Positions 1 to 60,968 of a stretch of 64,000 nucleotides of DNA are shown in pieces. The stretch covers positions 80,904-144,903 of the forward strand of contig CAWDEX010000003.1 in NCBI GenBank assembly GCA_963801475.1, in the 5' to 3' direction. How positions within the stretch are numbered: position 1 is the first letter of the stretch; every line of letters starts with the position of its first letter. This stretch comes from an uncultured Acidobacteriota bacterium. GTDB taxonomy: Bacteria > Acidobacteriota > Thermoanaerobaculia > UBA5066. Position numbers and translations under genes: made by a program. The notes under the pieces are model-generated. The model did not search any database and was not told the origin of the DNA. It was given only the letters and a program-made list of their open reading frames with translations.

Positions 1-686
1 ACTTCGAGGTGGCCTACAACGATGCGCTCGCGCGCGCCACGACCCCGCTGCTGGCCTTCGTCGACACCGATGTCTTCTGGGTCTCGCGGGAAATCTGGGG
101 GCGAGTGCTCAGGAAGTTCGAACGGCCGGGCGTCGCGGCCGTCTCGTGCGTATCGCGCGAGGGCATCGGCAGCCCCGGGACCTTTGCCGTCGTGATGAGG
201 GTGGCGGCGTATCGCGACGCGCTACGTTCGGTCCCGGGAGGCTTCCTCCCGTTCGCCGAGCGCGAGGCATCGGGCCCGCCGCCGGGCCGCTGGATCGGCC
301 ACGATACCGGGGACCTCGTCGCCCGCGCCGTGCAGGCTTCAGGCTTCGAGGTCGAGTTGCTGCACCTCGAGAAGCAAGGCGACGTCGTGCGCTTTGATGC
401 GATCACCAACACGCGCCTGATCCGCGGCTGGACGGGGGAGGGGCCCTTCCTCGAGCTGGCCGTCCGGAAGCCCTACTTCCGCCGCGGCGCCCTGGGGAAC
501 CTCGTCCTCCATTCCCTCCATGATCGTCTCTTCCGGGACGGGCCGCGCTACGTGCCGCCGATTCCGGCGGGGAGGCTCTGGAGTGCGCTGGTCAGCCACC
601 CTCGCACGTTCCTTCGCGCCGTGGGGGAGTGGATTCGCTTCCGTGAGGGGGCCCGGCGAATCGAGCGGTTCCTGGCGGGCCCCTAA
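1..686 (+). CDS. 5'-truncated glycosyltransferase-like protein (possible GT2; C-terminal fragment entering the window)
   Basis: The ORF is open from the window edge, with its stop at 686. It has an 'LLAFVDTDVFW' DxD-like motif and no other recognisable signature. It overlaps the stop of the convergent GT4 gene by 4 nt. Confidence 0.3.
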   Translation, partial: FEVAYNDALARATTPLLAFVDTDVFWVSREIWGRVLRKFERPGVAAVSCVSREGIGSPGTFAVVMRVAAYRDALRSVPGGFLPFAEREASGPPPGRWIGHDTGDLVARAVQASGFEVELLHLEKQGDVVRFDAITNTRLIRGWTGEGPFLELAVRKPYFRRGALGNLVLHSLHDRLFRDGPRYVPPIPAGRLWSALVSHPRTFLRAVGEWIRFREGARRIERFLAGP

Positions 687-1801
687 CGGGACGAGACGAC
701 CTCCGCGTAGATTCTCTCGAAGCTCACCGCCGTGTGATCGGCGTCGTGCGCGAGGGCGAAGGCGCGCGCCCTGTCCCCCATCCGCCGCCGCCCCTCGCCA
801 TCGCGGAGGAGGGCGAGGATCCCCGCGGCGAGGGCGGCGTCGTCGCCCGACGGCACGGCGAGCGCCGCCTCGGGCGCGAGATCCGCGACGAGGCCGACCG
901 CCGTGCCGACCGTCGGAAGGCCGCAGAGAGCTGCCTCCAGGACGGCGACGCCCTGCGCTTCGTGGAGAGACGACTGGACGAAGAGAGCGGCGTGTCGGAA
1001 CAGGGGGACGAGCTTGCTCGAAGTGAGCGTGCCGTGAAAAGTGACACGGGTCCCGAGGCCGAGACGGCCGGCTTCGGCCTGGACGGCGCCCTCGAGCGTG
1101 TCTTCGCCGGCGACCTCGAGCGTGACTCGCGGCTCGGCGTCGACGACCCGCCGGAGGGCCCTGAGAAGCGTCGACTGGTCCTTGACCCGGTTCAGGCTCG
1201 CGACGTGGAGGAGCCGGAAAGCACTGCGTTCTTCCGGTTCACCGGGCGAAAAGAGGGAGGTTTCGGCGCCGAGGGGGACGACCTCGGTCGGGACGCCGAG
1301 AGTCGAAAGTCGCGCGGAGAGGTAGCGAGACCCGGCGGTCACGCGGACCGCCCGCGACAGGGCGAATCTCGTCTTGAGCCGTTCCCTCGGGAAGAGCCAG
1401 CCGCCGTAGCCGATCTCCGGAAGCGTGGTGACCTCGCCTCCCGCCACGTGGACGACGAGCGGCGTGCGGCTGCGAAGCGTCGCGAGGGCCGCGAGGGCGG
1501 CGGGCGACCCCGCCCAGAAGGCATGGACGACGTCGACCGGGCCCGCCTCCGCGAGGAGGCGCGCGAGGCGGGGAGCGGCGCGGAAAAGGCCCGTTCCGGG
1601 CAGGCCGTGTCCGGGCAGGCCGAGGTTGTGGACGGTCGCTCCGAGCAGGGGCCAGGTGCCGGGCTCGGCCTCCTGCCTCAGGGCGAAGACCCGGACGTCG
1701 TGCCGTCTGGCCAGACGCTCGATCAGGGAGATTAGAGCCGGAATGACGCGCTCGCTTCCCGACCTGTCGACGCCGCCGGGGACGACGAGAGCAATCCGCA
1801 T
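683..1801 (-). CDS. GT4-family glycosyltransferase
   Basis: 372 aa with the two-Rossmann GT-B architecture. The C-terminal region 'HVASLNRVKDQSTLLRA...EAQGVAVLEAALCGLPTVGTAVG' is typical of the GT4 EX7E region. Confidence 0.7.
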   Translation of the reverse strand: MRIALVVPGGVDRSGSERVIPALISLIERLARRHDVRVFALRQEAEPGTWPLLGATVHNLGLPGHGLPGTGLFRAAPRLARLLAEAGPVDVVHAFWAGSPAALAALATLRSRTPLVVHVAGGEVTTLPEIGYGGWLFPRERLKTRFALSRAVRVTAGSRYLSARLSTLGVPTEVVPLGAETSLFSPGEPEERSAFRLLHVASLNRVKDQSTLLRALRRVVDAEPRVTLEVAGEDTLEGAVQAEAGRLGLGTRVTFHGTLTSSKLVPLFRHAALFVQSSLHEAQGVAVLEAALCGLPTVGTAVGLVADLAPEAALAVPSGDDAALAAGILALLRDGEGRRRMGDRARAFALAHDADHTAVSFERIYAEVVSSR

Positions 1802-1810
1802 GGCGGGATG

Positions 1811-2977
1811 CTACCGGGCTCTTCGCGACGCCCGCTCCTCGACCAGCGCCCGGTACGCCGCCTCGGCCTGCCGTGAGATGGCGCTCCAGCTGGCGATCTC
1901 CTCGAATCGCCGTCGGACGGCCCGGCGCGCGTCGGCCGTGGACCGCGAGGCCCCGAGCCGCAGGGCGGCAGCGCAGGATTCCGCGTCCCCTGCCGGGAAG
2001 AGCTCTCCCGCGGCGCCGGCATTCGTCAGGAGGCGGTGCGGCGGGATGTCGCTCGCCACCGGGAAGGCCCCGCATGCCATCGCTTCGATGAGGGCGTAAT
2101 TCGATCCTTCGTCGGGACTCGAGGTCAGGAAGAGATCGGCCGCCGAGTACCAGGCCGGAAGCCCTTCGTGAGGAAGACGCCCCACGAGCCGGATTCGTTC
2201 CGTGAGACGCGGCGAGGAGGCGCGAAACGCCTCGACCTCGGCCAGACGCGGAGCCTCGGCATAAGCCATCGTCAGCGTCGCGCCGGGGAGGCTCTCGAGA
2301 GCACCCGCGAATCCGCGGAGCGCCGTGACCGGGTCCTTCCTCGCGTGAAGGCGTCCGACCCAGAGAATGGCGGGATCTCCGTCGAGGCCGGTCGCCGCGC
2401 GGGCGGCGTCCCGTGCGAGGGGCGCGAAGTCGCACGACCCTTCCACCACCTCGAACACCGGCCTCGCCGCAAGAACGCCTTTCTCCCGCCACGGCCGGCC
2501 GATCGCCTCGGCTGTGAAGAGGAACCCGTCGGCGAACGGATGGACGAGGCGCTGGAGACGGCCCCGCCAGCCTTCCTCCGGGCTCCCGCCGTGGTGTTGG
2601 ACGGCGAAGACGGGGCGCCGCGCCGTCAGCGCCAAAGACGCGGCGAGCTGGACGGGAAAGAGAAACCCGTTCCAGTGGACGACGTCCGGCCGATACGCGC
2701 GGAGAAGAGCGAGGAGTTCCGCCGGACGCGTCCGGGGCGTGGCGAGGTGCGCCTCCGGGTCGTCGGCGCGGAGATGGTACGAGACGCCGTCCCGGACGAG
2801 GTCCTCGTCGCGATGGAAGCGCTGAAAGGCCGTCGCGGAGACTCCCGGGCGCGCCGTGAGCGACTCGCAAAACCGTGTCGCGGTCGGAAGACGATCGAGC
2901 AGGCTCGCGCCGTCCGGTGCGTCGGAGAAGGCGAGGTTCACGTACGCGACGCGGAGACGGTTCAAGGTCCCTGTCAC
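1811..2977 (-). CDS. GT4-family glycosyltransferase
   Basis: 388 aa. The C-terminal 'GRLHARKDPVTALRGF...SPDEGSNYALIEAMACGAFPVASDI' matches the GT4 nucleotide-sugar binding region. It lies in tandem with the preceding GT4. Confidence 0.65.
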   Translation of the reverse strand: MTGTLNRLRVAYVNLAFSDAPDGASLLDRLPTATRFCESLTARPGVSATAFQRFHRDEDLVRDGVSYHLRADDPEAHLATPRTRPAELLALLRAYRPDVVHWNGFLFPVQLAASLALTARRPVFAVQHHGGSPEEGWRGRLQRLVHPFADGFLFTAEAIGRPWREKGVLAARPVFEVVEGSCDFAPLARDAARAATGLDGDPAILWVGRLHARKDPVTALRGFAGALESLPGATLTMAYAEAPRLAEVEAFRASSPRLTERIRLVGRLPHEGLPAWYSAADLFLTSSPDEGSNYALIEAMACGAFPVASDIPPHRLLTNAGAAGELFPAGDAESCAAALRLGASRSTADARRAVRRRFEEIASWSAISRQAEAAYRALVEERASRRAR

Positions 2978-3047
2978 CGTAGACGATTCCCGGCGTGACT
3001 TCCAGCGCGCCGCGCGGGCCAGCAGCGTCCGTATACTGGCTCGCTCG

Positions 3048-3713
3048 ATGAAGACGGTCCTGGCGCCGGACGCGGCGTACCGCCTCTGGGCCCCGACCTA
3101 CGAGGAGGCCGGAGCGCTAGCGGCGCTGGACGAGCTGGCGCGGACCCGCCTCGACCCCGAGCCCGCGCCGCCGCTCCTCGACGCGGCGTGCGGAACCGGC
3201 CGCCGCCTGAAGACGGCGGCGGGAGGGTGGCGCCGCGAAGCCGCCGGGATCGACGCCGTCCTCGAGATGCTCCGCGCGGGTGGGCCCGGGGGACCGGTCG
3301 CCGTCGCGGATCTTCGAAGGCTTCCCTTCGGGAGCGATTCGTTCCGGACGGCCTGGTGCCGACTCGCCGTCGGCCACCTCGGCGATCTCGCCGGCAGCTA
3401 CCGCGAGCTCTCGCGCGTCCTGTCGCCCGGAGGGCATCTGCTCGTCACCGACTTTCACCCGGAAGCGGCCCGGCGGGGAATGGCCCGGACCTTCCGGAGC
3501 GGGGGAGCGGTCTGGGAAGTTGAGCATCACATCCACGAGATCGCGGCTCATCGGCGGAAAGCCGCCGCCTCGGGTCTCGAGATCGAGGACGTTCTCGAAC
3601 TGGCCGTGGGAGAGGACGTGCGCCCCTTTTTCGACACGACGAAAGCGGTCGGGCTGTACGAGCGGGTGAAGGGCTTGCCGGTGCTTCTGGCCCTCCGGAT
3701 GCGCCGTGACTGA
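3048..3713 (+). CDS. class I SAM-dependent methyltransferase
   Basis: It carries the 'LLDAACGTGRRL' SAM-binding motif I. The first ATG that does not overlap the upstream GT4 is at 3048; the track ORF 2856-3713 extends spuriously upstream. Its stop overlaps the start of the amidohydrolase by 8 nt. Confidence 0.6.
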   Translation: MKTVLAPDAAYRLWAPTYEEAGALAALDELARTRLDPEPAPPLLDAACGTGRRLKTAAGGWRREAAGIDAVLEMLRAGGPGGPVAVADLRRLPFGSDSFRTAWCRLAVGHLGDLAGSYRELSRVLSPGGHLLVTDFHPEAARRGMARTFRSGGAVWEVEHHIHEIAAHRRKAAASGLEIEDVLELAVGEDVRPFFDTTKAVGLYERVKGLPVLLALRMRRD

Positions 3714-4917
3714 GGCGACCCTCCCGACCGGGACGCGGCCGGCTCCTCCGGTCGCGGTGGTCCTGGCGGGGATCCGGGTCGTCACGCCGAGCGGCGTCTA
3801 CCCGGGCCCGCTGAGGATTTCCGGGGGGATCGTGGACGGCGGGGCGCCGCGGCCCGGCGACCGCGTCGTCCGCCTCGAAGGACACCTCGTCCTCCCCGGG
3901 CTCCTGAACGCGCACGACCACCTGCCGCTCAACGCCTTTCCGGAGGTGCCGGACCTGGGGACGTTCGGGAACGCCGCCGACTGGATCGACGCCCTTCGAC
4001 CGGTCCTCGACTCGATCCCGTTCCGCGCGGCGCGGGCGATCGACCCGGAGGTCCGCGCGCGTCACGGGGCGCTGAAGAACCTCCTGGCGGGCGTGACGAC
4101 CGTCGCCCACCACGATCCGTGGCTCGACCCGATGGGGGGTGCGGACTTTCCGGTCCGCGTTCTCTCGCCCTATGGCTGGTGTCACTCGCCGCGCCTCGCC
4201 GGACGGTACGGTCCCGGCCTCGAGGAGAGTCACGCGATGACGCCGGCGGGCGCCCGATGGTTCATTCACCTCGCCGAAGGGACGGACGGGGAGGCCCGGG
4301 GCGAGGTGACGCTTCTCGACCGCCGGGGGCTCCTGGGTCTGGAGACGGTCGCCGTCCACGGCGTCGGATTCAGCGAGAAGGACGTCGCACGGTTCCTCGC
4401 GGCCGGCTCTTCTCTCGTCTGGTGCCCGTCCAGCAACCTGAAGATCCTCGGGAAGACGCTCGACCCCGGCCCCGTCGCGCGGGCGGGCCGCCTCGCCCTC
4501 GGGACCGACTCCCGGCTGAGCGGCTCGAGGGACCTGCTCGACGAGCTTCGCGCCGCGCGCGACGCGTCCCAGCTGCCGGCCGCCGCCCTTCTCGGGCTCG
4601 TCACGACGAATGCGGGGGAGGTCCTCGGCCTTCGGGGCGCCGGAGCGCTCGAACCCGGCTCGCCGGCCGACCTCGTCGTTCTGCGGGACCCGGGCGGCGA
4701 CCCCTGCGAGGCGATTCTCGGAACGCGGCGCGCGGACCTCCGGGCGGTCGTCACCGGCGGCGTTCCGCGGGTTGCCGATACCGATCTTCTGACGTGGCTC
4801 TCGGCCGCGGGAGCCGCGCCGCGCCCGGCCCGGCTGGACGGAGCCGCCAAGCTCGTCGACGGGAGGATCTTCGCCGGTGAGGCGGCGGCACTGGAACCGG
4901 GGCTGACGCTGTCGTGA
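3706..4917 (+). CDS. metal-dependent amidohydrolase-family hydrolase
   Basis: 403 aa with an N-terminal 'LLNAHDHLPLN' HxH metal-binding motif, characteristic of the amidohydrolase/deaminase superfamily. It is translationally coupled to the upstream methyltransferase. Confidence 0.6.
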   Translation: MTEATLPTGTRPAPPVAVVLAGIRVVTPSGVYPGPLRISGGIVDGGAPRPGDRVVRLEGHLVLPGLLNAHDHLPLNAFPEVPDLGTFGNAADWIDALRPVLDSIPFRAARAIDPEVRARHGALKNLLAGVTTVAHHDPWLDPMGGADFPVRVLSPYGWCHSPRLAGRYGPGLEESHAMTPAGARWFIHLAEGTDGEARGEVTLLDRRGLLGLETVAVHGVGFSEKDVARFLAAGSSLVWCPSSNLKILGKTLDPGPVARAGRLALGTDSRLSGSRDLLDELRAARDASQLPAAALLGLVTTNAGEVLGLRGAGALEPGSPADLVVLRDPGGDPCEAILGTRRADLRAVVTGGVPRVADTDLLTWLSAAGAAPRPARLDGAAKLVDGRIFAGEAAALEPGLTLS

Positions 4918-4933: not shown

Positions 4934-6352
4934 TCAGGAGAGGGCCGGTTCGGGAAAGAGAAGCTGGCCGAGGGCTTTCTCGAGCGGGAGGGCGAAGACG
5001 TTCCGTTCGCATCGCCACCGCGCCACGCGCTGGAGGGGGCGCTTCCACGCCGTCGGCTCCGCGTAGCCGAGGCGCTGGTAGTACTTGTACCGCTCCACCA
5101 GGCGGTTCCGCTCGGGCGTCACCCAGGGGCTGTCGGCGTCGTAGAAGTCGAACCGGGCCCACTCGTCCAGCGTCTGCGGCGGACGGTAGCCGGCCCGCAC
5201 GGCCTCCTCGGTCAGGGGCGTCCCGGGATACGGCTTGAAGTAGAAGATCGGCGTCTCGAAGAGGGGACTCATCGCCCGGAGCCGCCGGGCCGCGTCGAGG
5301 CTCATCCGGATGCTCTCGTCGCTCTCGCCGGGAAAGCAGACGATGAACGGAAACTGGACCCTCACGCCGTGGCGAAGACACTTCTCGGCGGAGAGGAAGA
5401 CCTGCTCGAGGCGGATGTCCTTCCGGATCCGGTCCAGCATCTCCTGCGAGCCGCTCTCCACGCCGAGGAGGACGCGGCGGAGGCCCGAGCGCCGGACCTT
5501 GGACATCACCTCGTCCGTGAGGCGAACGCCCTGGTCCGCGCGCAACGTGGCCGCCCAGGAGATCGGAAGCTCCCGGCGGAGGATCTCCTCGGCGATCGCG
5601 TCGACGCGCGAAAGGGAGGTGAAGAAAGTCTCGTCCTGGAAGTTGACGTCGTCGAATCGATGGGTTCGGTGGAGCCGTTCCAGCTCCTCGCCGAGGCGGC
5701 CGGGAGCAAGGCCGGTCCACTGGCGCCCGTAGACGTACGGGTCGGCACAGAAGGCGCAGCGGAAGCGGCACCCCTGCGAGGCGATGTAGTCGATCTGCCG
5801 CTTGCCCTTCTTCTCGAAGTACCGTTCGACGGGGAGGAGGCCGTAGTCGTGCGGGGCGAAGCCTTGGACCGCCGCGAACGTCCGTGCCGGGTTCCGAACC
5901 GCCGTTCCGTCCGTGTCGCGGCAGGCGCACCCGGCGCAGCCGACGAGCGAAGTCCCGGCCGCGAGCCGCTCCAGGATCTCGACGAACGTCTCCTCGCCCT
6001 GTCCCTGGACGGTCGCGTCGACGGAGGGCTCCTCGAGGCATTCCGTCCCGAAGAGCGAAGGGTGCCAGCCGCCCCAGACGACGGGGAGATCCGGGAATCG
6101 CGCCTTCGCCGCCCGTGAGACGGCCAGCGCGTCGCGGATCGGCGCCCCCGTCAGGACCGAGACGCCGAGAGCGAGTGCGCCGGGGAGCTGCGCGAGAAGC
6201 GCGGCGACCGGGTCGTCCTCGAGCCGCCCGTCGACGATCACGACCTCGTACCGGTCCTTCGGCAGGTGCGAGCCGACGGCAAGCGGCCCGAGCGGCATCG
6301 TCCAGAAGACGGCGCGGGGGTTGTAGAGGACGACCTTCCGCCGCGCGCTCAT
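4934..6352 (-). CDS. B12-binding (class B) radical SAM protein, paralog A
   Basis: N-terminal cobalamin-binding-like domain 'KVVLYNP...MPLGPLAVGSHL', then radical SAM 'SQGCRFRCAFCADP' (CxxxCxxC). The start ATG is at 6350-6352 (MSARRK). The track ORF 4934-7237 has a spurious N-terminal extension that is antisense-overlapping the next gene. Confidence 0.75.
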   Translation of the reverse strand: MSARRKVVLYNPRAVFWTMPLGPLAVGSHLPKDRYEVVIVDGRLEDDPVAALLAQLPGALALGVSVLTGAPIRDALAVSRAAKARFPDLPVVWGGWHPSLFGTECLEEPSVDATVQGQGEETFVEILERLAAGTSLVGCAGCACRDTDGTAVRNPARTFAAVQGFAPHDYGLLPVERYFEKKGKRQIDYIASQGCRFRCAFCADPYVYGRQWTGLAPGRLGEELERLHRTHRFDDVNFQDETFFTSLSRVDAIAEEILRRELPISWAATLRADQGVRLTDEVMSKVRRSGLRRVLLGVESGSQEMLDRIRKDIRLEQVFLSAEKCLRHGVRVQFPFIVCFPGESDESIRMSLDAARRLRAMSPLFETPIFYFKPYPGTPLTEEAVRAGYRPPQTLDEWARFDFYDADSPWVTPERNRLVERYKYYQRLGYAEPTAWKRPLQRVARWRCERNVFALPLEKALGQLLFPEPALS

Positions 6353-7428
6353 CGCGGGGCCTCCGTTCCGGCGGGGACGGCTTCCCTCAGGTTCAGCCGG
6401 CAGATGCAGCGAACGCAGACCGGATTTGTGGCGACATCGAGCGCCTCGCGGAAGGTGCGGGCGGCCGGAGCGTTCACGAGCGTCCCGAGAGACTCTCCTT
6501 CCCCGAGCGTTCCGTACGACCGGTGGAAGAAGCAGGGCCTCACGGAGCCGTCGACCCCGACGACCGCGGAGACCCAGGGCGCATTGCATCGCGACGGGGG
6601 AGGCGGTGCCGCACCGGCGATCGTCGCGAAGTGCCCGAGGATCCGCTCCCGGAGCTTCGCCGGGCTCTCTTCGATGAAGCCGGACTCGAAGTCGGCGGCA
6701 TGCCGTCCGGCGAGGTCCTCGAGGACGCGCTCGAGCTCGGGAAGCTCCTCGGGAGACAGGGCGAGAGCGGACGCGGGCGTCTCGCCTCGCCCGCCGGGGC
6801 GGTTGAAAGCCTCGCTCGAGACGTCGACGGCGAGAAAGCTGATGTGCCGAAACGCCAGGATCTTCGCCGCGTCTACCGTGGCCGGAAGGTGCCGGAAGTT
6901 CCCCTTCTGGACCGTGCAGCGCCCGCCGACGGGAAGCGAAGGCCGCGCGGCCGAGAGCGCGGTCACGCCGGCCGCGATCCGGTCGAAGGCGCCGGGGGTG
7001 CCTCGCAGCGCGTCGTGCACTTCGCGCGGCCCGTCGAGGCTGACGATCACCTCGTCGACCAGGGGCGCGAGGAGATGCGCCTTCCGGGGCAGGAGGGTTC
7101 CCGAGGTCAGGACCGTGACCGCGACGCCCGCTTCCTTCAGGACCCGGCAGAGCCCGCCGAGATCCGGGTGCATCAGGGGCTCGCCCCCGGTCAGAACGAC
7201 GTTCGATACGCCGAGGCGCCGCCACTCCGGAAGCCATCCGGCGACGTCGGCAACCCGGATTTCCCGCGAATCCTTCACTTTCCAGATGTCACACATGACG
7301 CAGCGGCAGTTGCACCGGCTCTGGACCTCGAGGAGGAGGACCGGCAGCCGCGTCACCGGCTCCCGCTTCGGGAGGAGCGGCCCGGTGCCCGGCCGGCGGG
7401 CGGCGGTCCGGAGCGGCGCGGCGCTCAT
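6349..7428 (-). CDS. radical SAM protein with C-terminal SPASM/twitch-like auxiliary-cluster domain
   Basis: 'SRCNCRCVMCDIW' is a CxxxCxxC motif about 35 aa from the N-terminus. The C-terminus has 'CNAPWVSAVVGVDGSVRPC' (CX13GX4C) followed by 'CVRCIC'. The start ATG at 7428 (MSAAPL) overlaps the upstream stop by 4 nt (ATGA). There is no N-terminal RRE/PqqD-like extension. Confidence 0.7.
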   Translation of the reverse strand: MSAAPLRTAARRPGTGPLLPKREPVTRLPVLLLEVQSRCNCRCVMCDIWKVKDSREIRVADVAGWLPEWRRLGVSNVVLTGGEPLMHPDLGGLCRVLKEAGVAVTVLTSGTLLPRKAHLLAPLVDEVIVSLDGPREVHDALRGTPGAFDRIAAGVTALSAARPSLPVGGRCTVQKGNFRHLPATVDAAKILAFRHISFLAVDVSSEAFNRPGGRGETPASALALSPEELPELERVLEDLAGRHAADFESGFIEESPAKLRERILGHFATIAGAAPPPPSRCNAPWVSAVVGVDGSVRPCFFHRSYGTLGEGESLGTLVNAPAARTFREALDVATNPVCVRCICRLNLREAVPAGTEAPR

Positions 7429-8207
7429 GCCGCCCTCTCGAAGCGGAGAAGGACGTGATCGGCGAGATGCGGAAGGGGCCAGGCTCCCTCCAGCCGGCGC
7501 TCGGCGCGGTCGAGGGCGTCGAGGAGCCCGGGGTGACGGTCCGCCCACCGTCCCGCGTACGTGGGCGGAAGGAGTGCGCCGATCGCGCGCGCCTCGCGAA
7601 AATTGAAGCCGGGAGCGAAGGAGCGTCGAACGAGGCCGAGGCCCGGATAGACGACGGTCAGGCCGCGCCAGGCGACGCCGCGCCGCGAATACCGGCGAAA
7701 GGCCTTTCGCGCCTCGCCGTGGAGGAAGGACCATGCCCACTCCCAGGGCACCGCCCGTCCCATGAGGACGAGGACGAGAGGCGCGCCCGGGCGGAGTATC
7801 GAGGCGAGAGCGCGCGCCGGAGCGCTGAGGTCCGCCACGCAGTTCAGGGCGCCGAAATTCGAATACGCGCCGTCGAACGGGCCGTCCCGGAGGCCACCGA
7901 GCGCCTCGATCGGGCGCGTCTCGACGCGGACGCGGCCAGCCAGCCCCTCTCGGGCGACCTTGGCGAGAGCCGCGTCGGCCATGGGGGGAGAGGCGTCGAG
8001 CGCGTGCACCGAGACGCCGCGCGCCGCGAGATGGACCGCGTCCTCGCCCGTTCCGCAGCCGAGGTCGAGGACACGGGAGCCTCCAGGGAACGCGGCGTCG
8101 AGGTGCCGCCAGACGGCGCGCCGGAGGCGCTGGCCGAGCGGCGTCGCGGTGAACTCGGCGTCGTAGTTCGCGGCGAGGGCGTCGAAGGGGGAAGCGGCCG
8201 CGGTCAT
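7425..8207 (-). CDS. class I SAM-dependent methyltransferase
   Basis: 'RVLDLGCGTGEDAVHLA' motif I. ATG at 8207 (MTAAASPFD). It has 4-nt overlaps with both neighbouring genes. Confidence 0.65.
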   Translation of the reverse strand: MTAAASPFDALAANYDAEFTATPLGQRLRRAVWRHLDAAFPGGSRVLDLGCGTGEDAVHLAARGVSVHALDASPPMADAALAKVAREGLAGRVRVETRPIEALGGLRDGPFDGAYSNFGALNCVADLSAPARALASILRPGAPLVLVLMGRAVPWEWAWSFLHGEARKAFRRYSRRGVAWRGLTVVYPGLGLVRRSFAPGFNFREARAIGALLPPTYAGRWADRHPGLLDALDRAERRLEGAWPLPHLADHVLLRFERAA

Positions 8208-9598
8208 GCCTCGACCTCGCCCGCGGCCGCGAGGAGACCGTCCCGCGCCGTCCGGGCCTCGGCCCGCTTCGCGGCCGCGGCCGCCGGATCGGAGGCGTCG
8301 AGACGGTGCGCCTCGACCTCGCTCCTGAGCCACCGGTCGGCCTGACGGTAGTAGGCGCGGCTGTGCCGCCCGGCGATCCGGTGGTCGCGGTCCGTCGCGT
8401 CCTCCCAGGCCTTATCGAGAACGACGCGTCCGGCCACCTTCCCGAAGTAGCCGGTGTTCCGGATGGGATAGGAGACCGTCGTGAAGAAGACGTCGGGCCC
8501 CGCCTGCTTGACGTGCTCGATCGTCGCCTCGATGTCCTCCACCGTCTCGCCGTCGTACCCCCACATCAGGAACATCCCGACCCCGATGCCGTGTCGCTGC
8601 GCGGCCCGGGTGGCCCACCGCACCTGCTCCACGGTCACTCCCCGTTGCATGGCGTCGAGGATCCGCTGGCTGCCGCTCTCGGAGCCGATCCAGATCCGCG
8701 AGCACCCCATCGCCGCGAGGGTCTCGAGAACCTCTTCCTTCATCATCCGGTCGGCCCGCGAGATCGTCTCGAACGGGATCCGGAGTCCGCGGGACTTCAG
8801 CTCCCGCGCGTAGGCGAAGAGCCAGCCGTGCTGCAGCGTGAAGACGTCGTCGGCGTACCAGAGCTGGTCGGGGCGGTACCGGTCGCGGATCCGCTCGACC
8901 TCGGCGGCCACGTTCGCCGGCGAGCGGCGGCGGTGCGTGAACCCGAAGACGGCGTGCGAGCACCAGTCGCACTTGTACGGACAGCCCCGGGCGGTGATCA
9001 GGTTGACGCTTCCCGCGCCGTGGTGCCTCCTCCAGACGTCGACGTACGCCGCGGTGTCGATCGCCTCGCGGTCCGGATCGGGGAGGAGGTCGAGGTCGGG
9101 GATCTGCGCCCGCTCGCCGTTCGTCACGACGCGCCCGTCCCCGTCGCGAAAGACGGTCCCCGCGACGCCGTGAAGGCGGTGCGGCCCGCGGGCGGCGAGG
9201 GCGGGCAGGAGGTCCGCCATCGTCTCCTCCCCCTCGCCGAGGACGACGACGTCCGCGCCCCGTTCCAGGTACTCCGCGGGATAGTTCGCGCTCTCCGGGC
9301 CGCCGAGGACGACCGTGAAGCCGAGCGACTTCGCCCGGGCCGCGATCTCGACGACCGGCCGCCGCGTCATGAGGTTCGTGTAGAGGCCGAGGACCTTCGT
9401 CCCCGGCCACGCCTCCAATGCGGCGTCAAGCTCGTCCCTCGTCCGGAAGGTCGTGTCGAAGACCTCGACGGCGACGCCGCGGCTCTTCAGGAAGGCCGAC
9501 ACGTAGAGAAGACCGAGAGGCGGATACGGCTTCATGATCTGCCGCTCCTTCTCGTCCTCGGCGAGGAAGTAGCCGTGCGAGAGGAGAAGGTCGCTCAC
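8204..9598 (-). CDS. B12-binding radical SAM protein, paralog B
   Basis: 'LLLSHGYFLAEDEKERQIMKPYPPLGLLYVSAFL' B12-binding-domain N-terminus and 'TARGCPYKCDWCSHA' CxxxCxxC. The start is chosen as GTG 9598 (VSDLLL) by alignment with paralog D (MAGRRLLLAHSFFL), giving a GTGA overlap with the upstream gene. An alternative ATG lies at about 9535. Confidence 0.75.
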   Translation of the reverse strand: MSDLLLSHGYFLAEDEKERQIMKPYPPLGLLYVSAFLKSRGVAVEVFDTTFRTRDELDAALEAWPGTKVLGLYTNLMTRRPVVEIAARAKSLGFTVVLGGPESANYPAEYLERGADVVVLGEGEETMADLLPALAARGPHRLHGVAGTVFRDGDGRVVTNGERAQIPDLDLLPDPDREAIDTAAYVDVWRRHHGAGSVNLITARGCPYKCDWCSHAVFGFTHRRRSPANVAAEVERIRDRYRPDQLWYADDVFTLQHGWLFAYARELKSRGLRIPFETISRADRMMKEEVLETLAAMGCSRIWIGSESGSQRILDAMQRGVTVEQVRWATRAAQRHGIGVGMFLMWGYDGETVEDIEATIEHVKQAGPDVFFTTVSYPIRNTGYFGKVAGRVVLDKAWEDATDRDHRIAGRHSRAYYRQADRWLRSEVEAHRLDASDPAAAAAKRAEARTARDGLLAAAGEVEA

Positions 9599-10971
9599 GC
9601 GTCCTCGCGGAACGCGGGCCGGAGGTGCCCGTATTCCTGCGAGTTGGCCGGCGTGAGGCCTCCGGACGCCGCGGCGAAGGCCGCCACCCGGGCCCTCAGC
9701 TCGGGCTTGAGCCACGGCACACGCGGGTCCTCGTGCGTCATCCACCCCATCCACTCGGGCTCGATCCACTCTTCGAGCGAACCGGGCGTACCGTCGATCG
9801 GATCGACGTTCCCGTACGTCCCGCGCCTCTGCGGCGTCGGCGTGTAGTAATAGGTGATCAGCTTCATCGTCGGGTTCACAGCCTTGAGACGCCGGATGAA
9901 GGCGAGTGTCTTTTCGGCCTCGGCCTCGGGGTCGTCGGGATCGCCGAACATGAAGGAGAACTCCGGAACGATGCCGTGCTCCCGGGCCCTCGCCGCAAAC
10001 GCAAGGGTCTGCTCCGTCGTCAGGTTCTTCGACATCCTCGCGAGGGTCGCGTCCGATCCCGACTCGGCGCCGAGGTAGACCATGGTGCAGCCGGAGCGGC
10101 GGATCTTCTCCCATGTCCGGTCGGAGAAGCGGAGCATGACGTCGATCCGGGCCTCGCACCACCAGCGAAGCTCCAGCGGAGTCATCCGTTCGGCGATCTC
10201 GCCGGCGTGCGCCTCGGACTGGAAGAAGTTGTTGTCGTAGAAGTGGAGACCGTCCATCCCGTGCCCCCGGACGAGGCCGGAGAGGTTCTCGACGGTCCGG
10301 GCGGGGTTCTCGAATTTCTCCCGGCTTCCGTAGACGGAGATCACGCCGCAGAAGTTGCACGTGTAAGGGCAGCCGATCGAGGCCTGGTAGACGCCGCTCC
10401 GCCGGCCGAGAAAGGTCGGTTCGAGATAGTCATCCACGTCGATTCGCCCGTACGGAGGCGGCGGCAGCTCGTCGGGACCGACCCACGGCCGTTCGGCGTT
10501 CAGCCGGACGGACCCGGCCTCCTTCCAGCCGAGACCGGCGACCGACGAGGGTTCGCGACGGCCTTCGAGAACTTCGAGAAGCTCGAGGAACGTCCGCTCA
10601 CCCTGGCCGCGCACGATCCAGTCGACGTACGGTGCGGCCAGGACCGTCCCCGGATAGAGGGAAGGAAAGTACCCGCCCCAGACGACGGGAACCCGTGGAA
10701 ACCTCTTCTTCAGCCTCTTCGTCAGCGGGACGGCGGCGGCGAGCTGCGGGCCGGGCATGACCGTGAACGCCAGCAGGCGAACGCGGTCGCCTGCCGCTTC
10801 GGCCGCTTCGGCCCGCTGGACGACGGCGTTGAAGACGTCCGGGTCCGGCCGGTTTCCGTCCACGATGTCCCACGTTTCACCCTCGGGAAGCGCGGCCCCG
10901 AGCGCCATGACGGAGAGAGGGAACCGCCGATGGAGGGGCCTCGTCGCCCGGGGGTTGATCAGGAGGATCAT
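9595..10971 (-). CDS. B12-binding radical SAM protein, paralog C
   Basis: 'MILLINPRATRPL...' N-terminus typical of B12-rSAM enzymes, and 'SIGCPYTCNFCGV' CxxxCxxC. 458 aa. Confidence 0.75.
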   Translation of the reverse strand: MILLINPRATRPLHRRFPLSVMALGAALPEGETWDIVDGNRPDPDVFNAVVQRAEAAEAAGDRVRLLAFTVMPGPQLAAAVPLTKRLKKRFPRVPVVWGGYFPSLYPGTVLAAPYVDWIVRGQGERTFLELLEVLEGRREPSSVAGLGWKEAGSVRLNAERPWVGPDELPPPPYGRIDVDDYLEPTFLGRRSGVYQASIGCPYTCNFCGVISVYGSREKFENPARTVENLSGLVRGHGMDGLHFYDNNFFQSEAHAGEIAERMTPLELRWWCEARIDVMLRFSDRTWEKIRRSGCTMVYLGAESGSDATLARMSKNLTTEQTLAFAARAREHGIVPEFSFMFGDPDDPEAEAEKTLAFIRRLKAVNPTMKLITYYYTPTPQRRGTYGNVDPIDGTPGSLEEWIEPEWMGWMTHEDPRVPWLKPELRARVAAFAAASGGLTPANSQEYGHLRPAFREDA

Positions 10972-10981: not shown

Positions 10982-12457
10982 CTATGACGCGTCCCGGGCG
11001 CCGGCCGCCGCGGCGCGCGGAAGACCGGCGGAGGGGAGGATCTTCCGCTCGGAGCGGAAGTCCGCCTCGCGCCAGGCGAGGTCCTTCCAGGCGTCGTCGA
11101 TCGCCGCCGGCTCCATGGGCCCTTCCCGTCCCGTGAGGACGAGCGCCTCGGCGTGCAGGAGGTCGCGCACGGTCCGGTAGAACGGGCTCGTGTAGGTCCC
11201 CTCGAAAAGCATCGCCAGCTCGTCCGTGTCGCTCCAGTTCTTCTGGTTCCGCATCTGATCCCGGACGCGGTCGTAGAACACGGTGCCCGGGAGAGGGTAA
11301 GAGACGGAGACGCCGATGTCGTGCGGCCGCTCCTCGCGGAGGAGCTGGCGCGTCGAGAGAATCTCCCCCCACGTCTCGCCCGTGTAGCCGAGCTGGAGGA
11401 ACCACGACGGGAGGATCCCGTGGCGTTTGAGGAGCCGGGTGGCCGACCGGGTCTGCTCCACGCGCGCCCCCTTGTCCATCGCGTCGAGGACCTTCTGCGA
11501 GCCCGACTCGACCCCCATCCAGACCTCCTCGCACCCGGCGTGGGAGAGGGCGGCGACGGCCGAGGGGGTCATCAGGTCGATGCGCGACTGCATCGTGAAG
11601 GGGATCCGGGCGTCCCGGCGGTCCACCTCCTCGGCGAACGACTCGATCCAGCGCGGCGTCAGGCCGAAGATGTCGTCGGCGAACCAGAGGTGGTCGGGGC
11701 GGACACGGGTCTTGAGCGCGGCCATCTCGTCGGCGACGGCCTGAGGGCTCCGCTGCGCGTACCGCGTGCCGTAGAGGGGCTTCGCGCACCAGTTGCAGCG
11801 GTAGGGGCAGCCGCGGGTCGTCACGGCGTTCCATGAGAAGCGCCCGTGCGCCCGCAGCCACGTGGCCCGGTAGCGCGCGGCGTCGACGAGGTCCCACGCG
11901 GGAAGGGGGAGGGCGTCGAGGTCCTCGAGGAACGGGCGGGGCGGTGTCCGGTGGACGAGGCCCCCCTCCGCGGGCAGGGCGAGCCCTGCGATCCCGGTGA
12001 GGCACGGCACGGGAGCGGCCCACGCGGCGACGAGCTCGGGGGCCGTCCGCTCGGTCTCGCCGAGCATCACGGCGTCGGCTCCGGCCGCGAGGTAGAGCTC
12101 CGGGCGGTCGGCCGCGTCGGGGCTGTTCACGGCCACCGGAAGGCCCCGCTCCTTCGCCGCGCGAATCATCGCGAGGGTTCCCTCCCGCATCCGGGTCGTG
12201 CACATCTTCGTCAGGAAGTTGAAACCGTCCTCGATGAGGAGAACGGCGGCGAAGCGCTCGCCCGCGAGGCGCGGCACGAACTCCTCCTCGCCGGGGGAGA
12301 GCATGGCGTCGAAGAGGGCCACCTCGTACCCGCGAGACCGGAGGACCGCCGCGGTCAGAAGCGTGGCGAGAGGCGGGTAGGGACGCATCTTTCTCGTCTG
12401 CTTCGCGTCGTGCGCCAGGAAGAAGGAATGGGCGAGGAGGAGGCGCCGGCCGGCCAT
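10982..12457 (-). CDS. B12-binding radical SAM protein, paralog D
   Basis: 'MAGRRLLLAHSFFLAHDAKQTRKMRPYPPLATLL' and 'TTRGCPYRCNWCAKP'. The ATG at 12457 is preferred by homology with paralog B over the track start at 12475. Confidence 0.75.
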   Translation of the reverse strand: MAGRRLLLAHSFFLAHDAKQTRKMRPYPPLATLLTAAVLRSRGYEVALFDAMLSPGEEEFVPRLAGERFAAVLLIEDGFNFLTKMCTTRMREGTLAMIRAAKERGLPVAVNSPDAADRPELYLAAGADAVMLGETERTAPELVAAWAAPVPCLTGIAGLALPAEGGLVHRTPPRPFLEDLDALPLPAWDLVDAARYRATWLRAHGRFSWNAVTTRGCPYRCNWCAKPLYGTRYAQRSPQAVADEMAALKTRVRPDHLWFADDIFGLTPRWIESFAEEVDRRDARIPFTMQSRIDLMTPSAVAALSHAGCEEVWMGVESGSQKVLDAMDKGARVEQTRSATRLLKRHGILPSWFLQLGYTGETWGEILSTRQLLREERPHDIGVSVSYPLPGTVFYDRVRDQMRNQKNWSDTDELAMLFEGTYTSPFYRTVRDLLHAEALVLTGREGPMEPAAIDDAWKDLAWREADFRSERKILPSAGLPRAAAAGARDAS

Positions 12458-12464: not shown

Positions 12465-13391
12465 CTATATCTCACTTGATCGCGCGATGGTTTCGAGACG
12501 GCGGAGGGCTCCGGCGAGGTCCCGGGCGCCGTCCAGCCGGAATCCGCCCCGGGCCCCCCAGGCGCGGGCGAGGACGTCCGGGTCCGCCCCGTCCCGCTCC
12601 TGCGGGATCTCCCCGTCCCGGAACGCCGCGGCGAACGCCTCGGCCGGGAGCGACACGAGCGCTGCCGGCGTCCGATCGCGATCTCCGAGAAGAACCGCGG
12701 CGGCGAGCCGGGCGTGGCGGGCTACGGGCGACGTCCCGGTCCAGAGGTCGACCCGCCGCTTCGCCTCGCCGCCTGTAAACGCGGGCTCCGTCCGGTCGAA
12801 GAGGCCGAGAAGCTCCGCGCCGTCGGGAAGGAGCGTCAGGTCACGGACGCCGGCGGCCAGTTCCTCCGGGTCCTCGCGGGCCACGAGGAGGCTCTCGTCG
12901 GCCAGGACGGAAAGGCCCTCGCCGGCGAGCGCCGCCGCGAGGGTCGACTTTCCGGCTCCCGGACCGCCGCGGATCACGATTGTGCCTCGTGGCCCGACGA
13001 TGGCGGCCGCGTGAAGGATCTGCCACTTCCGGCGGGAGAGGAGCGCCGTCGCCGGCGCCTCGAAAAGGTAACGCGCCGCAAGGGCCGGATCCCGCGAGAG
13101 GAGAGCGCGGGACACACGCGCCTCGACACGCGCCGCCGTCACATCGATCCGCGCGCGGAGGAGATCGCCAAGGGCCAGCTCCCAGCCGTCACGTCTCCTC
13201 TTCCAGACGAGTCCGCGCTCCGGGAGCTGGCCTGCCTCCGGGCCCTCGAGAACGGCAACGTCGAACCGGATCGCGTCCGGATCGGCCTCCCGAGCGGGCT
13301 CCCAGAGCGTCTCGGCGAGGACAAACGGCAACGGGTCGTCCGAAGTGAGGACGAGTCGGTCGCGGGGCGGAGCGAAGACTCTGACGGGCAA
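12465..13391 (-). CDS. HPr-kinase-C-terminal-domain-like P-loop kinase (HprK-related)
   Basis: 'VIRGGPGAGKSTLAAALAGEGLSVLADESLLV' matches the HprK C-domain Walker-A pattern plus 'L(V/A)(A)DE'. It has no HprK N-domain. It is the first gene of the rSAM operon. Its start codon is uncertain (TTG/GTG). Confidence 0.55.
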   Translation of the reverse strand: MPVRVFAPPRDRLVLTSDDPLPFVLAETLWEPAREADPDAIRFDVAVLEGPEAGQLPERGLVWKRRRDGWELALGDLLRARIDVTAARVEARVSRALLSRDPALAARYLFEAPATALLSRRKWQILHAAAIVGPRGTIVIRGGPGAGKSTLAAALAGEGLSVLADESLLVAREDPEELAAGVRDLTLLPDGAELLGLFDRTEPAFTGGEAKRRVDLWTGTSPVARHARLAAAVLLGDRDRTPAALVSLPAEAFAAAFRDGEIPQERDGADPDVLARAWGARGGFRLDGARDLAGALRRLETIARSSEI

Positions 13392-13450
13392 TCAGGGAAA
13401 CTCGCGCAACCTTTTCCGGGGTATCGGCGTCCATACTCTCACGGAGAGGA

Positions 13451-25511: not shown

Positions 25512-25540
25512 TTGACGGGGGGACCCTGGGGTTCGATACT
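25512..25540 (+). promoter_or_regulatory. sigma70-like promoter of the dcw operon (TTGACG-N17-GATACT)
   Basis: TTGACG at 25512-25517 and GATACT at 25535-25540 with a 17-nt spacer, about 92 nt upstream of the mraZ ATG. Seen directly in the sequence. Confidence 0.5.
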
Positions 25541-25545
25541 CGCCG

Positions 25546-25580
25546 GTGGAAAAAAGTGGTCATCTGTGGTGCATCGTGGG
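25546..25580 (+). promoter_or_regulatory. putative MraZ operator: four direct GTGG(N) repeats at exact 10-bp spacing
   Basis: gGTGGaaaaaaGTGGtcatctGTGGtgcatcGTGGGctg, with repeat starts at about 25546, 25556, 25566 and 25576. It sits between the predicted -10 and mraZ. MraZ operators are described as TGGGN-type direct repeats with 10-bp periodicity. Confidence 0.55.
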
Positions 25581-25631
25581 CTGCGGAGGCTCCCGAGGGC
25601 CCACAGGGGCTCCCGTTTTCCGGGAAGGAAC

Positions 25632-26078: not shown

Positions 26079-26093
26079 GGACGGAGGAGACCG

Positions 26094-27047: not shown

Positions 27048-27060
27048 GGGGGGGCGGCCC

Positions 27061-37901: not shown

Positions 37902-37911
37902 GGAACATCCC

Positions 37912-39159: not shown

Positions 39160-39178
39160 TAACAACGGAGGAAATAAG

Positions 39179-57311: not shown

Positions 57312-57351
57312 GTGTCCCGGGCGGCGGGGCTCGTCCCCGCGCGGACCGCGG

Positions 57352-60944: not shown

Positions 60945-60968
60945 CCGCCCTCCTGCGCGATCGCGCGT

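What the first reader, a model, noticed from the sequence alone, without database searches (positions are those of the whole stretch)
12465..13391. HPr-kinase-like P-loop kinase as the first gene of the rSAM operon
The protein retains the HprK C-terminal kinase signature (GGPGAGKST ... LSVLADESLL) but lacks the HprK N-domain. Stand-alone HprK-like kinases have been described in lasso-peptide clusters, where they phosphorylate the C-terminal Ser, and in Haft's 'HprK-related kinase A/B' cassettes with PqqD-family proteins. Its placement ahead of five radical SAM genes suggests that the unknown substrate is phosphorylated, or that a phospho-intermediate is used. The start codon is not canonical (TTG/GTG).
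Basis: partly seen in the sequence, partly recalled or inferred. Interest (0 to 1): 0.55.

Follow-up and report, generated by a model that had tools for sequence, protein, structure and literature searches.

The report
Orphan HprK/PEPCK-fold kinase with rSAM partner
The gene is real and encodes a small, uncharacterised ATP-binding enzyme with the fold of HPr kinase and PEP carboxykinase; it always sits next to one particular radical-SAM enzyme in a sugar-tailoring gene cluster of uncultured soil bacteria, so it probably adds a phosphate to a still unknown non-peptide intermediate.

Summary

It is not HprK/P, and it is not a member of TIGR04352 or TIGR04355 (36 and 24 bits against cut-offs of 200). 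Its N-terminal domain resembles that of PEPCK, not that of HprK.

It defines a compact, unnamed family in MAGs of Acidobacteriota and Gemmatimonadota, with a sister clade in Acidimicrobiia. In 26 of 26 loci it lies 18-174 bp from the orthologue of one class-B radical SAM gene. GT4 glycosyltransferases, SAM methyltransferases, and sometimes NTP_transf_5, a PIG-L deacetylase or an ABC exporter usually accompany it. I found no PqqD, no lasso enzymes and no room for a precursor-peptide gene.

The most likely role is a kinase acting on a glycosyl-type, non-ribosomal intermediate. The substrate is unknown. I rate it a new variant of a known kind, of moderate interest.

The parts
12465..13391 (-). 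K: 308-aa stand-alone HprK/PEPCK-fold P-loop protein. TTG start at 13391, TAG stop at 12465-12467.
13038..13391 (-). N-terminal alpha/beta domain of K (about residues 1-118). Invariant W30 and W63. Not the HprK N-domain. Its presence lets PEPCK align over 220-227 residues, against 130-142 for HprK/P.
12942..12968 (-). P-loop G142-G-P-G-A-G-K148-S149-T150. G142, G145, G147, K148, S149 and T150 are invariant. K148 and S149 align with HprK K161/S162 and PEPCK K254/T255.
13011..13013 (-). Invariant H127. Aligns with HprK/P H140 (by spacing to the P-loop lysine) and E. coli PEPCK H232 (hhalign).
12894..12899 (-). D165-E166 (D invariant; E in 83/86, D in 3/86). Aligns with HprK/P D178-D179. This is the pair whose D158A/D159A mutation was used to inactivate the lasso kinase PsmK.
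13392..13450 (.). 59-bp divergent intergenic region between K and the 1405-aa CarboxypepD_reg-repeat gene. No sigma-70-like match, no riboswitch.
10982..12457 (-). B12a: class-B (B12-domain) radical SAM protein, 7 nt downstream of K. Its orthologue flanks K in every related locus. The fold is closest to AprD4, MgmA and TsrM.
9595..10971 (-). B12b: B12-binding radical SAM protein.
8204..9598 (-). B12c: B12-binding radical SAM protein (GTGA overlap with B12b).
7425..8207 (-). MT1: class I SAM-dependent methyltransferase (ATGA overlap).
6349..7428 (-). Radical SAM/SPASM protein. Best NCBIfam hit is BlsE, 81 bits, sub-threshold.
4934..6352 (-). B12d: B12-binding radical SAM protein, last gene of the operon.
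3706..4917 (+). Amidohydrolase of the TRZ/ATZ and nucleobase/nucleoside-deaminase group, convergent with the operon. Co-occurs with K in most Thermoanaerobaculia loci.
2856..3713 (+). MT2: second class I methyltransferase. The start is uncertain because the ORF overlaps the 5' end of the divergent GT4 gene.
683..2977 (-). Two GT4 glycosyltransferases: GT4a 683-1801 and GT4b 1811-2977. Orthologues accompany K or K-like genes across phyla.

Best explanation
K is an active ATP-dependent phosphotransferase of the PEPCK/HprK P-loop fold. It has two domains: a PEPCK-like N-domain and a P-loop domain. It founds an unnamed family and works as a module with the adjacent class-B radical SAM enzyme B12a, inside a cluster that builds and heavily methylates a glycosyl or aminosugar-type, non-ribosomal product.

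Proposed mechanism: K transfers the gamma-phosphate of ATP to a hydroxyl of a pathway intermediate. The phosphate then does one of two things. It may make the intermediate the proper substrate of B12a. Or it may serve as the attachment point for sugar addition by the NTP_transf_5 and GT4 enzymes, as in the PsmK then PsmN phospho-glycosylation of pseudomycoidin.

Shown: the gene, the fold, conservation of the catalytic residues, family limits, and gene neighbourhood. Inferred: kinase activity, the non-peptide nature of the substrate, and the order of steps.
For: Fold:
- The AF2 model has pLDDT 96.8.
- In Foldseek the top 50 hits are all PEPCK, with best E 8e-8.

Catalytic residues:
- H127, K148, S149 and D165 are invariant and E166 is >=96% conserved in 86 sequences.
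- They align with HprK/P H140, K161, S162, D178, D179 and with PEPCK H232, K254, T255.
- The homologous Asp pair was the mutation used to inactivate PsmK (PMC6993621).

Family:
- 46 clusters at 50% identity score E<1e-30; scores then fall to 1e-19 or weaker for full-length relatives, within a superfamily of 14,714.
- All members are annotated 'hypothetical'.

Coupling to B12a:
- The B12a orthologue lies 18-174 bp from K in 26/26 loci with room, either co-directional or divergent.
- Searches starting from B12a also find K immediately upstream.
- The other genes of the cluster vary between loci.

Non-peptide context:
- GT4a/GT4b, GT9 and GT2 are present.
- Gemmatimonadota loci add a PIG-L deacetylase, an Eis/MshD-like GNAT and a sulfotransferase.
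- NTP_transf_5 is present in at least 8 non-redundant loci.
- The sister clade is homologous over its full length (hhalign probability 98.9%) and keeps the order K-like, GT4a, NTP_transf_5, GT4b, B12a in Acidimicrobiia.
- The nearest outgroup protein also follows a GT4 gene.
- The B12a model is closest in TM-score to AprD4, which acts on an aminoglycoside.
- There are many invariant Arg/Lys residues (R107, R121, R183, K211, R213, R225, R238) and Trp residues (W30, W63, W278).
Against: - No biochemical data exist for any member of the family. All loci come from MAGs.
- The substrate class is inferred only from neighbouring genes.
- One locus (L034) has no glycosyltransferase within 10 kb. It does have NTP_transf_5 and an ABC exporter, which would also fit a peptide product.
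- The characterised stand-alone relatives are peptide kinases.
- Several neighbours give their best, sub-threshold, NCBIfam hits to RiPP enzymes such as ApyD, ApyS and the daptide methyltransferase.
- Strict K-B12a adjacency could partly reflect shared ancestry of the lineages sampled.
- I could not inspect model coordinates, so it is not shown that the invariant Arg and Trp residues line the active-site cleft.
Confidence: 0.5

Rival explanations
1. K is a peptide or protein Ser/Thr kinase of a RiPP-like or protein-modification pathway, as in lasso peptides (PadeK, ThcoK, PsmK) or Haft's HprK-related/PqqD cassettes. The radical SAM enzymes and methyltransferases would modify the same peptide. 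That peptide would be encoded elsewhere, or the substrate would be the adjacent 1405-aa CarboxypepD_reg protein.
For: - The only characterised stand-alone HprK homologues phosphorylate the C-terminal Ser of precursor peptides.
- K + NTP_transf_5 + sulfotransferase + ABC exporter is the accessory gene set seen in lasso clusters. Pieces of that set occur here.
- A more distant superfamily member (P0200) is followed by a PqqD gene.
- B12-radical SAM, SPASM and class I methyltransferases are typical of proteusin-like RiPPs, and there are weak hits to ApyD and ApyS.
- The CarboxypepD_reg gene lies head-to-head with K in about 14 loci.
Against: - No PqqD/RRE, lasso cyclase, protease or precursor ORF was found in the window or in more than 25 loci.
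- Gene packing in the window operon leaves intergenic gaps of 59 bp or less.
- The CarboxypepD_reg gene is absent from the Holophagales-like, Gemmatimonadota and Acidimicrobiia loci, and its product does not end in Ser.
- GT4 genes and PIG-L/GNAT are the recurrent neighbours.
- TIGR04352/04355 scores are far below their cut-offs.
Confidence: 0.2
2. K is not a substrate kinase. It is an ATP-driven accessory factor for B12a, for example in cofactor loading, reactivation or scaffolding. This would explain the strict one-to-one pairing with one radical SAM paralogue only.
For: - K pairs strictly with B12a and not with the other B12-radical SAM paralogues.
- K and B12a are often translationally coupled or overlapping.
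- The B12-binding domain of B12a scores below the Pfam gathering threshold (30.8 against 32.1 bits; marked weak).
Against: - Every known member of the PEPCK/HprK fold transfers phosphate to or from a substrate. This is established knowledge of the families; the fold assignment comes.
- The full set of phosphotransfer residues is invariant, including the His and the Asp-Glu pair, which are not needed for simple ATP hydrolysis.
- In the Acidimicrobiia sister clade, K-like and B12a are separated by three genes.
Confidence: 0.12
3. K belongs to a salvage route for radical-SAM by-products, together with the deaminase-like amidohydrolase. It would phosphorylate a 5'-deoxyadenosine-derived or SAH-derived sugar or nucleoside.
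For: - The amidohydrolase in the cluster groups with the nucleobase/nucleoside deaminases, including 5'-deoxyadenosine and MTA/SAH deaminases.
- The operon encodes five radical SAM enzymes and at least two SAM methyltransferases, which produce 5'-dA and SAH.
Against: - K occurs without the amidohydrolase in the Gemmatimonadota and Acidimicrobiia loci, whereas B12a is always present.
- Known 5-deoxyribose and methylthioribose kinases have other folds (established knowledge).
- All the deaminase hits are far below their cut-offs.
Confidence: 0.05
4. K is a bona fide HprK/P regulator of carbon catabolite control, or the ORF is a chance or antisense reading frame.
For: - There are weak hits to Hpr_kinase_C (16 bits) and TIGR00679 (12.8 bits).
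- An antisense ORF at 12714-13460 (+) has similar GC3.
Against: - TIGR00679 has a cut-off of 240 bits.
- Full-length HprK/P structures align over only 137-142 residues, so there is no HprK N-domain.
- The LEIRGLGII signature is not conserved.
- No HPr was found in the window.
- 209 homologue clusters and a pLDDT 96.8 model support the minus-strand protein.
Confidence: 0.02

Closest known systems
HPr kinase/phosphorylase (HprK/P; TIGR00679, PF07475), e.g. L. casei 1jb1
   Different: There is no MurE/F-like HprK N-domain. The signature LEIRGLGII is not conserved. The score is 12.8 bits against a cut-off of 240. No HPr gene was found in the window. The context is biosynthetic, not PTS or carbon catabolite control.
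Lasso-peptide kinases (PadeK, ThcoK, SyanK, PsmK)
   Same: They are stand-alone HprK homologues encoded in biosynthetic clusters. The catalytic Asp pair is shared (PsmK D158/D159). Partner genes of the NTP_transf_5 (PsmN) type, sulfotransferases and ABC exporters recur in some related loci.
   Different: No lasso cyclase, B1/B2 or precursor gene is present. The invariable partner is a class-B radical SAM enzyme and the usual neighbours are GT4 genes.
Haft's HprK-related kinase A/B (TIGR04352, TIGR04355) and ScmC (TIGR04249 / PF27840)
   Same: These are the best-scoring curated families: 86/86 members hit TIGR04352 and 58/86 hit TIGR04355. They have a similar length of about 300 aa. They belong to the same superfamily of stand-alone proteins often found with radical SAM genes.
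   Different: Scores of 36 and 24 bits against cut-offs of 200, matching only about 50 residues around the P-loop. There is no PqqD partner. The radical SAM partner is B12-type rather than only SPASM-type.
ATP- and GTP-dependent PEP carboxykinase
   Different: K is 308 aa against about 540 aa, and TM-score is only about 0.45. No PEPCK Pfam or NCBIfam match reaches threshold. The oxaloacetate- and PEP-binding residues could not be mapped. I see no reason to expect carboxykinase chemistry.

Membership tests
PEPCK-like / HprK-like P-loop superfamily (fold level) | P-loop domain with the PEPCK/HprK topology, clearly closer to these than to ordinary NMP kinases | tested here: met
PEPCK-like / HprK-like P-loop superfamily (fold level) | Conserved His before the P-loop strand, GxGK[ST], and an acidic pair after the next strand | tested here: met
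   H127, K148, S149 and D165 are invariant and E166 is 83/86. Alignments to 1jb1 and E. coli PckA.
HprK/P (TIGR00679) | Score at or above the curated cut-off (240 bits) | tested here: not met
   12.8 bits. Pfam Hpr_kinase_C scores 16 bits against GA 33.3.
HprK/P (TIGR00679) | N-terminal HprK domain | tested here: not met
   The ORF cannot be extended because of an in-frame TGA. Full-length HprK/P structures 1ko7 and 1knx align over only 137-142 residues.
HprK/P (TIGR00679) | HPr (ptsH) substrate encoded in the genome or nearby | tested here: inconclusive
The rest of the genome was not available.
HprK-related kinase A (TIGR04352) | Score at or above the cut-off of 200 bits over the full model | tested here: not met
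   36.1 bits, residues 124-174 only. The best E-value among the 86 family members is 6.7e-12.
HprK-related kinase A/B cassettes | Adjacent PqqD-family protein. The cassette description is recalled from TIGRFAMs, not tested here. | tested here: not met
   No PqqD among the called genes of L001, L003, L005, L006, L034 or L035. tblastn with a PqqD query was negative. By contrast, the distant relative P0200 does have one.
HprK-related kinase B (TIGR04355) | Score at or above the cut-off of 200 bits | tested here: not met
   24 bits.
Lasso-peptide kinase | Co-location with a lasso cyclase (C), B1/B2 and a precursor ending in Ser | tested here: not met
   None of these is in the window cluster or in the related loci. 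There is no intergenic room in the operon.
Lasso-peptide kinase | Phosphorylation of a peptide C-terminal Ser | not testable with these tools
   Needs an enzyme assay.
PEP carboxykinase | Full-length enzyme of about 540 aa matching PF01293 or TIGR00224 | tested here: not met
   The protein is 308 aa. PEPCK_ATP scores 13.4 bits in one member. pckA gives E 0.0099 in 1 of 86 members.

The most novel reading that the evidence does not exclude
K and B12a form a previously unrecognised two-enzyme module, a 'mini-PEPCK'-fold kinase plus a class-B radical SAM enzyme. The module is conserved across Acidobacteriota, Gemmatimonadota, one MAG labelled Planctomycetota and, in looser form, Acidimicrobiia. 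In this reading, phosphorylation of a glycosyl or aminosugar intermediate is the obligatory priming step for radical chemistry, such as deoxygenation, ring contraction or C-methylation. The product would be a new class of phospho- or polymethylated glycoconjugate in abundant uncultured soil bacteria.
Probability: 0.3. Interest if true: 0.7.

Novelty: new variant of a known kind. Interest (0 to 1): 0.5.

Why it matters
Stand-alone HprK homologues are known experimentally only as lasso-peptide Ser kinases. This family shows that the same fold was recruited into a non-RiPP, glycosyltransferase-rich pathway, where it is locked to one cobalamin-type radical SAM enzyme.

The superfamily is very large: 14,714 clusters at 50% identity with E<=1e-3. 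It is almost entirely unannotated, and its members share a PEPCK-like two-domain architecture that the label 'HprK C-domain' hides.

Defining the substrate would give a function to a conserved cluster in Thermoanaerobaculia and Gemmatimonadota, which are abundant, largely uncultured soil and sediment lineages. It could also reveal a new way of priming substrates for radical SAM chemistry.

A practical point: the public gene model of this protein is truncated by 20 residues at the N-terminus.

Tried and rejected
1. Extending the ORF to look for an HprK N-domain. This is blocked by an in-frame TGA.
2. A sequence-profile search of the PDB gave only weak matches to the PEPCK P-loop region and no HprK below E=1. 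A single-sequence search with P0004 reached 1jb1 at E 0.008.
3. The afdb50 fold library was not available.
4. Looking for domain fusions among the longer superfamily members found nothing informative.
5. An all-against-all tblastx of 'intergenic' segments, meant to find a conserved precursor ORF, was too noisy. Gene masking failed at 72% GC and hits were spurious. I fell back on the gene-packing argument and the called genes.
6. tblastn for PqqD and HPr was negative, but its sensitivity is low.
7. Rfam found no riboswitch near the operon, only two tRNAs elsewhere. The promoter and terminator scans were uninformative.
8. Literature searches for this cluster (HPr kinase + radical SAM + glycosyltransferase; brGDGT + B12 radical SAM; PIG-L + radical SAM) found no description of it. 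The paeninodin paper was not held.
9. A link to brGDGT or lipid-tail methylation was considered. It was not pursued because the conserved partners are GT4 genes, deacetylase, GNAT and O/N-type methyltransferases, and no lipid-synthesis genes were seen in the Acidobacteriota or Gemmatimonadota loci.
10. A phosphonate pathway was considered because of weak FomB hits in 3 of 86 members. No neighbouring gene scanned matched PEP mutase; the one weak hit (E 0.023) lay inside B12a itself.
11. Homologues of B12a carry only generic names, so they give no clue to the product.
Full report
**1. Observation**

The coordinates 12465-13391 hold an ORF on the minus strand of 308 codons. The window is about 72% G+C, so long ORFs overlap in several frames. 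Here, codon-position G+C (GC3 0.83, GC2 0.55) fits the minus-strand frame. The decisive evidence for the gene is homology and foldability. There are 209 protein clusters at E<=1e-3, most of them 300-320 aa. An AlphaFold2 model built on 86 homologues has mean pLDDT 96.8 and pTM 0.92.

The quoted motifs are present. GGPGAGKST is residues 142-150 and LSVLADESLL is residues 161-170.

The ORF starts with TTG at 13391 and the preceding in-frame codon is TGA. There is no ATG in the ORF, and the other candidate starts are TTG 13331 and GTG 13142. 84 of 85 aligned homologues cover residues <=10. P9 and D11 are >=90% conserved, and residues 3-17 form two confident strands in the model. The TTG at 13391 is therefore the start. 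The identical public protein (P0001, 288 aa) was called from the second TTG and is truncated.

**2. Operon**

Seven nucleotides downstream of K, a run of genes begins on the same strand:

- B12a, 10982-12457
- B12b, 9595-10971
- B12c, 8204-9598
- a class I methyltransferase, 7425-8207
- a radical SAM/SPASM protein, 6349-7428
- B12d, 4934-6352

The last four junctions are GTGA or ATGA overlaps. All five radical SAM proteins hit PF04055 and carry CxxxCxxC. Four have an N-terminal B12-binding domain. 'First gene of an operon with five radical SAM genes' is therefore correct.

Convergent with this operon are a second methyltransferase and an amidohydrolase (2856-4917, plus strand). Beyond them lie two GT4 glycosyltransferases (683-2977, minus strand) and a GT2-like gene cut by the window edge. 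Upstream of K, 59 bp away and divergent, is a 1405-aa CarboxypepD_reg-repeat protein.

**3. What the protein is**

Curated profiles place it nearest to Haft's stand-alone HprK relatives, but far below membership:

| Family | Score (bits) | Cut-off (bits) | Note |
|---|---|---|---|
| TIGR04352 | 36.1 | 200 | residues 124-174 only |
| TIGR04355 | 24 | 200 | |
| TIGR00679 (HprK/P) | 12.8 | 240 | |
| Pfam Hpr_kinase_C | 16 | 33.3 (GA) | |

The same holds for every one of 86 family members.

Foldseek's top 50 hits are all PEPCKs, with alignments spanning the whole query. So the protein has the PEPCK/HprK P-loop domain. Its own N-terminal domain of about 118 residues resembles the N-terminal part of PEPCK, not the HprK N-domain.

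Sequence alignments give the residue correspondences. By phmmer of the close homologue P0004 against L. casei HprK/P, K148/S149 match K161/S162 and D165/E166 match D178/D179. H127 corresponds to H140 by its identical spacing, 21 residues before the P-loop lysine. H127, K148 and S149 also match H232, K254 and T255 of E. coli PEPCK. All five residues are invariant or nearly so in the family. The equivalent Asp pair was the one mutated to inactivate the lasso kinase PsmK (PMC6993621). The HprK signature LEIRGLGII is not conserved. I conclude that the protein is very probably a working phosphotransferase. That conclusion is an inference from conservation.

**4. Family and distribution**

A profile search of 1.84 billion representatives finds 46 clusters at E<1e-30. 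Below that, scores drop to 1e-19 or weaker for full-length relatives. Then comes a very large superfamily: 588 clusters at E<1e-10 and 14,714 at E<1e-3. Many of these proteins are about 300 aa and match over their full length. The distant ones tested are also sub-threshold for every curated family.

Named sources and a scan of GTDB species genomes place the tight family in MAGs of Thermoanaerobaculia, Holophagales, Vicinamibacterales and Gemmatimonadota, plus one MAG labelled Planctomycetota.

A sister clade in Acidimicrobiia (alignment A2) is homologous over 302 columns, with hhalign probability 98.9% and E 1e-17. It shares the His, the P-loop, the D-D/E pair, K211 and a [IL]PxER motif. It is likewise below all curated cut-offs.

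**5. Neighbourhood**

I compared the window genes with 30+ related loci. The orthologue of B12a (57-74% identity) lies 18-174 bp from K in 26 of 26 K-family loci that have room, which is 23 non-redundant loci. It is either co-directional or divergent. Two searches started from B12a homologues also found an unannotated protein of about 315-335 aa directly upstream, and tblastn confirmed it as K. Everything else in the cluster varies:

- the number of B12-radical SAM paralogues (1-4)
- the number of class I methyltransferases (1-5)
- presence of the SPASM protein and the amidohydrolase
- recurrent extras: GT4a/GT4b, a GT9 heptosyltransferase-like gene, and NTP_transf_5 (PF14907) in at least 8 non-redundant loci
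- in Gemmatimonadota: a PIG-L deacetylase, an Eis/MshD-like double GNAT and a sulfotransferase
- in two loci: an ABC exporter

The Acidimicrobiia clade keeps the order K-like, GT4a, NTP_transf_5, GT4b, B12a. The nearest outgroup protein follows a GT4 gene, whereas a more distant one is followed by PqqD.

No PqqD, lasso cyclase or protease, or precursor gene was seen in any K-family locus. The window operon has no intergenic space for one.

The model of B12a (pLDDT 85.8) is a class-B radical SAM enzyme. Its highest TM-score is to AprD4, a diol dehydratase acting on the aminoglycoside paromamine. MgmA, TsrM, CysS, OxsB and TokK follow.

**6. Mechanism proposed**

K is an ATP-dependent kinase that phosphorylates a hydroxyl of a non-ribosomal, glycosyl-type intermediate. 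It does so either to create the substrate of B12a or to provide the phosphate onto which NTP_transf_5 and the GT4 enzymes add sugars. There is precedent for the second route. In pseudomycoidin, the HprK homologue PsmK phosphorylates the acceptor, and the PsmN nucleotidyltransferase-family protein is then required to add hexoses to that phosphate.

The fold, the residues and the gene linkage are shown. The activity, the substrate class and the order of steps are inferred. I give this 0.5.

Rivals, with my estimates:

- a peptide or protein kinase whose precursor is encoded elsewhere, 0.2
- an ATP-driven accessory factor for B12a, 0.12
- a by-product salvage kinase working with the deaminase-like amidohydrolase, 0.05
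- true HprK/P or a non-gene, 0.02

**7. Comparison and novelty**

At fold and catalytic level the protein works like HprK/P and the lasso kinases. It fails the membership tests for HprK/P, TIGR04352, TIGR04355 and PEPCK, and it lacks the genomic hallmarks of lasso or PqqD cassettes. It is best described as a new, unnamed family within the stand-alone HprK/PEPCK-like superfamily, defined by its pairing with a class-B radical SAM enzyme in a glycosyltransferase-rich cluster. That makes it a new variant of a known kind.

Interest is moderate at 0.5. The finding is solid and the context is unusual, but the substrate is unknown and no cultured organism or experiment anchors it.

**8. Limits**

All related loci come from metagenome-assembled genomes. 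I could not read model coordinates, run multimer predictions or search the AlphaFold database.

Noticed in passing
window 13331-13391 (-): The identical public protein (P0001, 288 aa) is annotated from the second TTG and lacks 20 conserved N-terminal residues. Those residues form two strands of the fold. The two closest homologue clusters (P0002, P0003) are also 288 aa.
   Followed up: yes
window 3706-4917 (+): The amidohydrolase in the cluster groups with the TRZ/ATZ, guanine, 8-oxoguanine, 5'-deoxyadenosine and MTA/SAH deaminases. All hits are sub-threshold (35-64 bits). It could remove 5'-dA or SAH, the inhibitory by-products of the five radical SAM enzymes and the methyltransferases.
   Followed up: partly
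window 10982-12457 (-): The B12-binding domain of B12a scores just below the Pfam threshold (30.8 against 32.1 bits). The best TM-score of its model is to AprD4, a class-B-like radical SAM diol dehydratase acting on an aminoglycoside. It may therefore not be a methylase.
   Followed up: partly
window 13451-17668 (+): A 1405-aa CarboxypepD_reg-repeat protein with a signal-peptide-like N-terminus lies head-to-head with K, 59 bp away. This arrangement is kept in about 14 Thermoanaerobaculia loci but not in the other lineages. It is probably lineage synteny, although a role as substrate was not excluded.
   Followed up: partly
L015, L016, L017, L019 (Gemmatimonadota loci), roughly 1-10 kb upstream of K: The Gemmatimonadota versions of the cluster carry a PIG-L (BshB/MshB-like) deacetylase, an Eis/MshD-like double GNAT, a sulfotransferase and, in L017, an AMP-binding ligase. 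Together with the GT4 genes this recalls mycothiol, bacillithiol or aminoglycoside-type logic.
   Followed up: partly
L037 4857-6539 and 10001-13972: In one Acidimicrobiia MAG the K-like/radical SAM/methyltransferase genes lie about 3.5 kb from a thrS - HIT - CDP-alcohol phosphatidyltransferase - Lip_A_acyltrans block. That block resembles the actinobacterial PI/PIM locus as I recall it. The proximity may be a coincidence.
   Followed up: no
window 56000-64000: This segment has lower G+C (65-67% against about 72%). It holds a radical SAM gene (57422-58666, -) followed by ABC-2 permease and ABC ATPase genes (58743-60831, -). It is bracketed by tRNA-Glu (57236-57311, -) and tRNA-Arg (60969-61046, +), and an SLH-domain protein lies at 62427-63278. 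It may be a genomic island or a separate small cassette.
   Followed up: no
window 51989-53509 (-): A PF10136 'site-specific recombinase' family protein (E 1.8e-144) lies next to a mechanosensitive channel gene and an old-yellow-enzyme-type oxidoreductase.
   Followed up: no
window 25512-40375 (+): A division and cell-wall (dcw) cluster: mraZ, rsmH/mraW, a PBP with a PASTA domain, ftsW, ftsA and ftsZ. Nearby are mfd (18250-21765), a PliI-like lysozyme inhibitor (17675-18208) and a SurA-like chaperone (22656-24302). The same mfd - PliI - CarboxypepD_reg - K order recurs in L001, L005 and L035.
   Followed up: partly
window 2856-2977: The longest ORFs of the divergent genes MT2 (+) and GT4b (-) overlap by about 120 bp at their 5' ends. 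At least one real start must lie further in. For MT2, an internal Met at about 3048 was judged by eye only.
   Followed up: no
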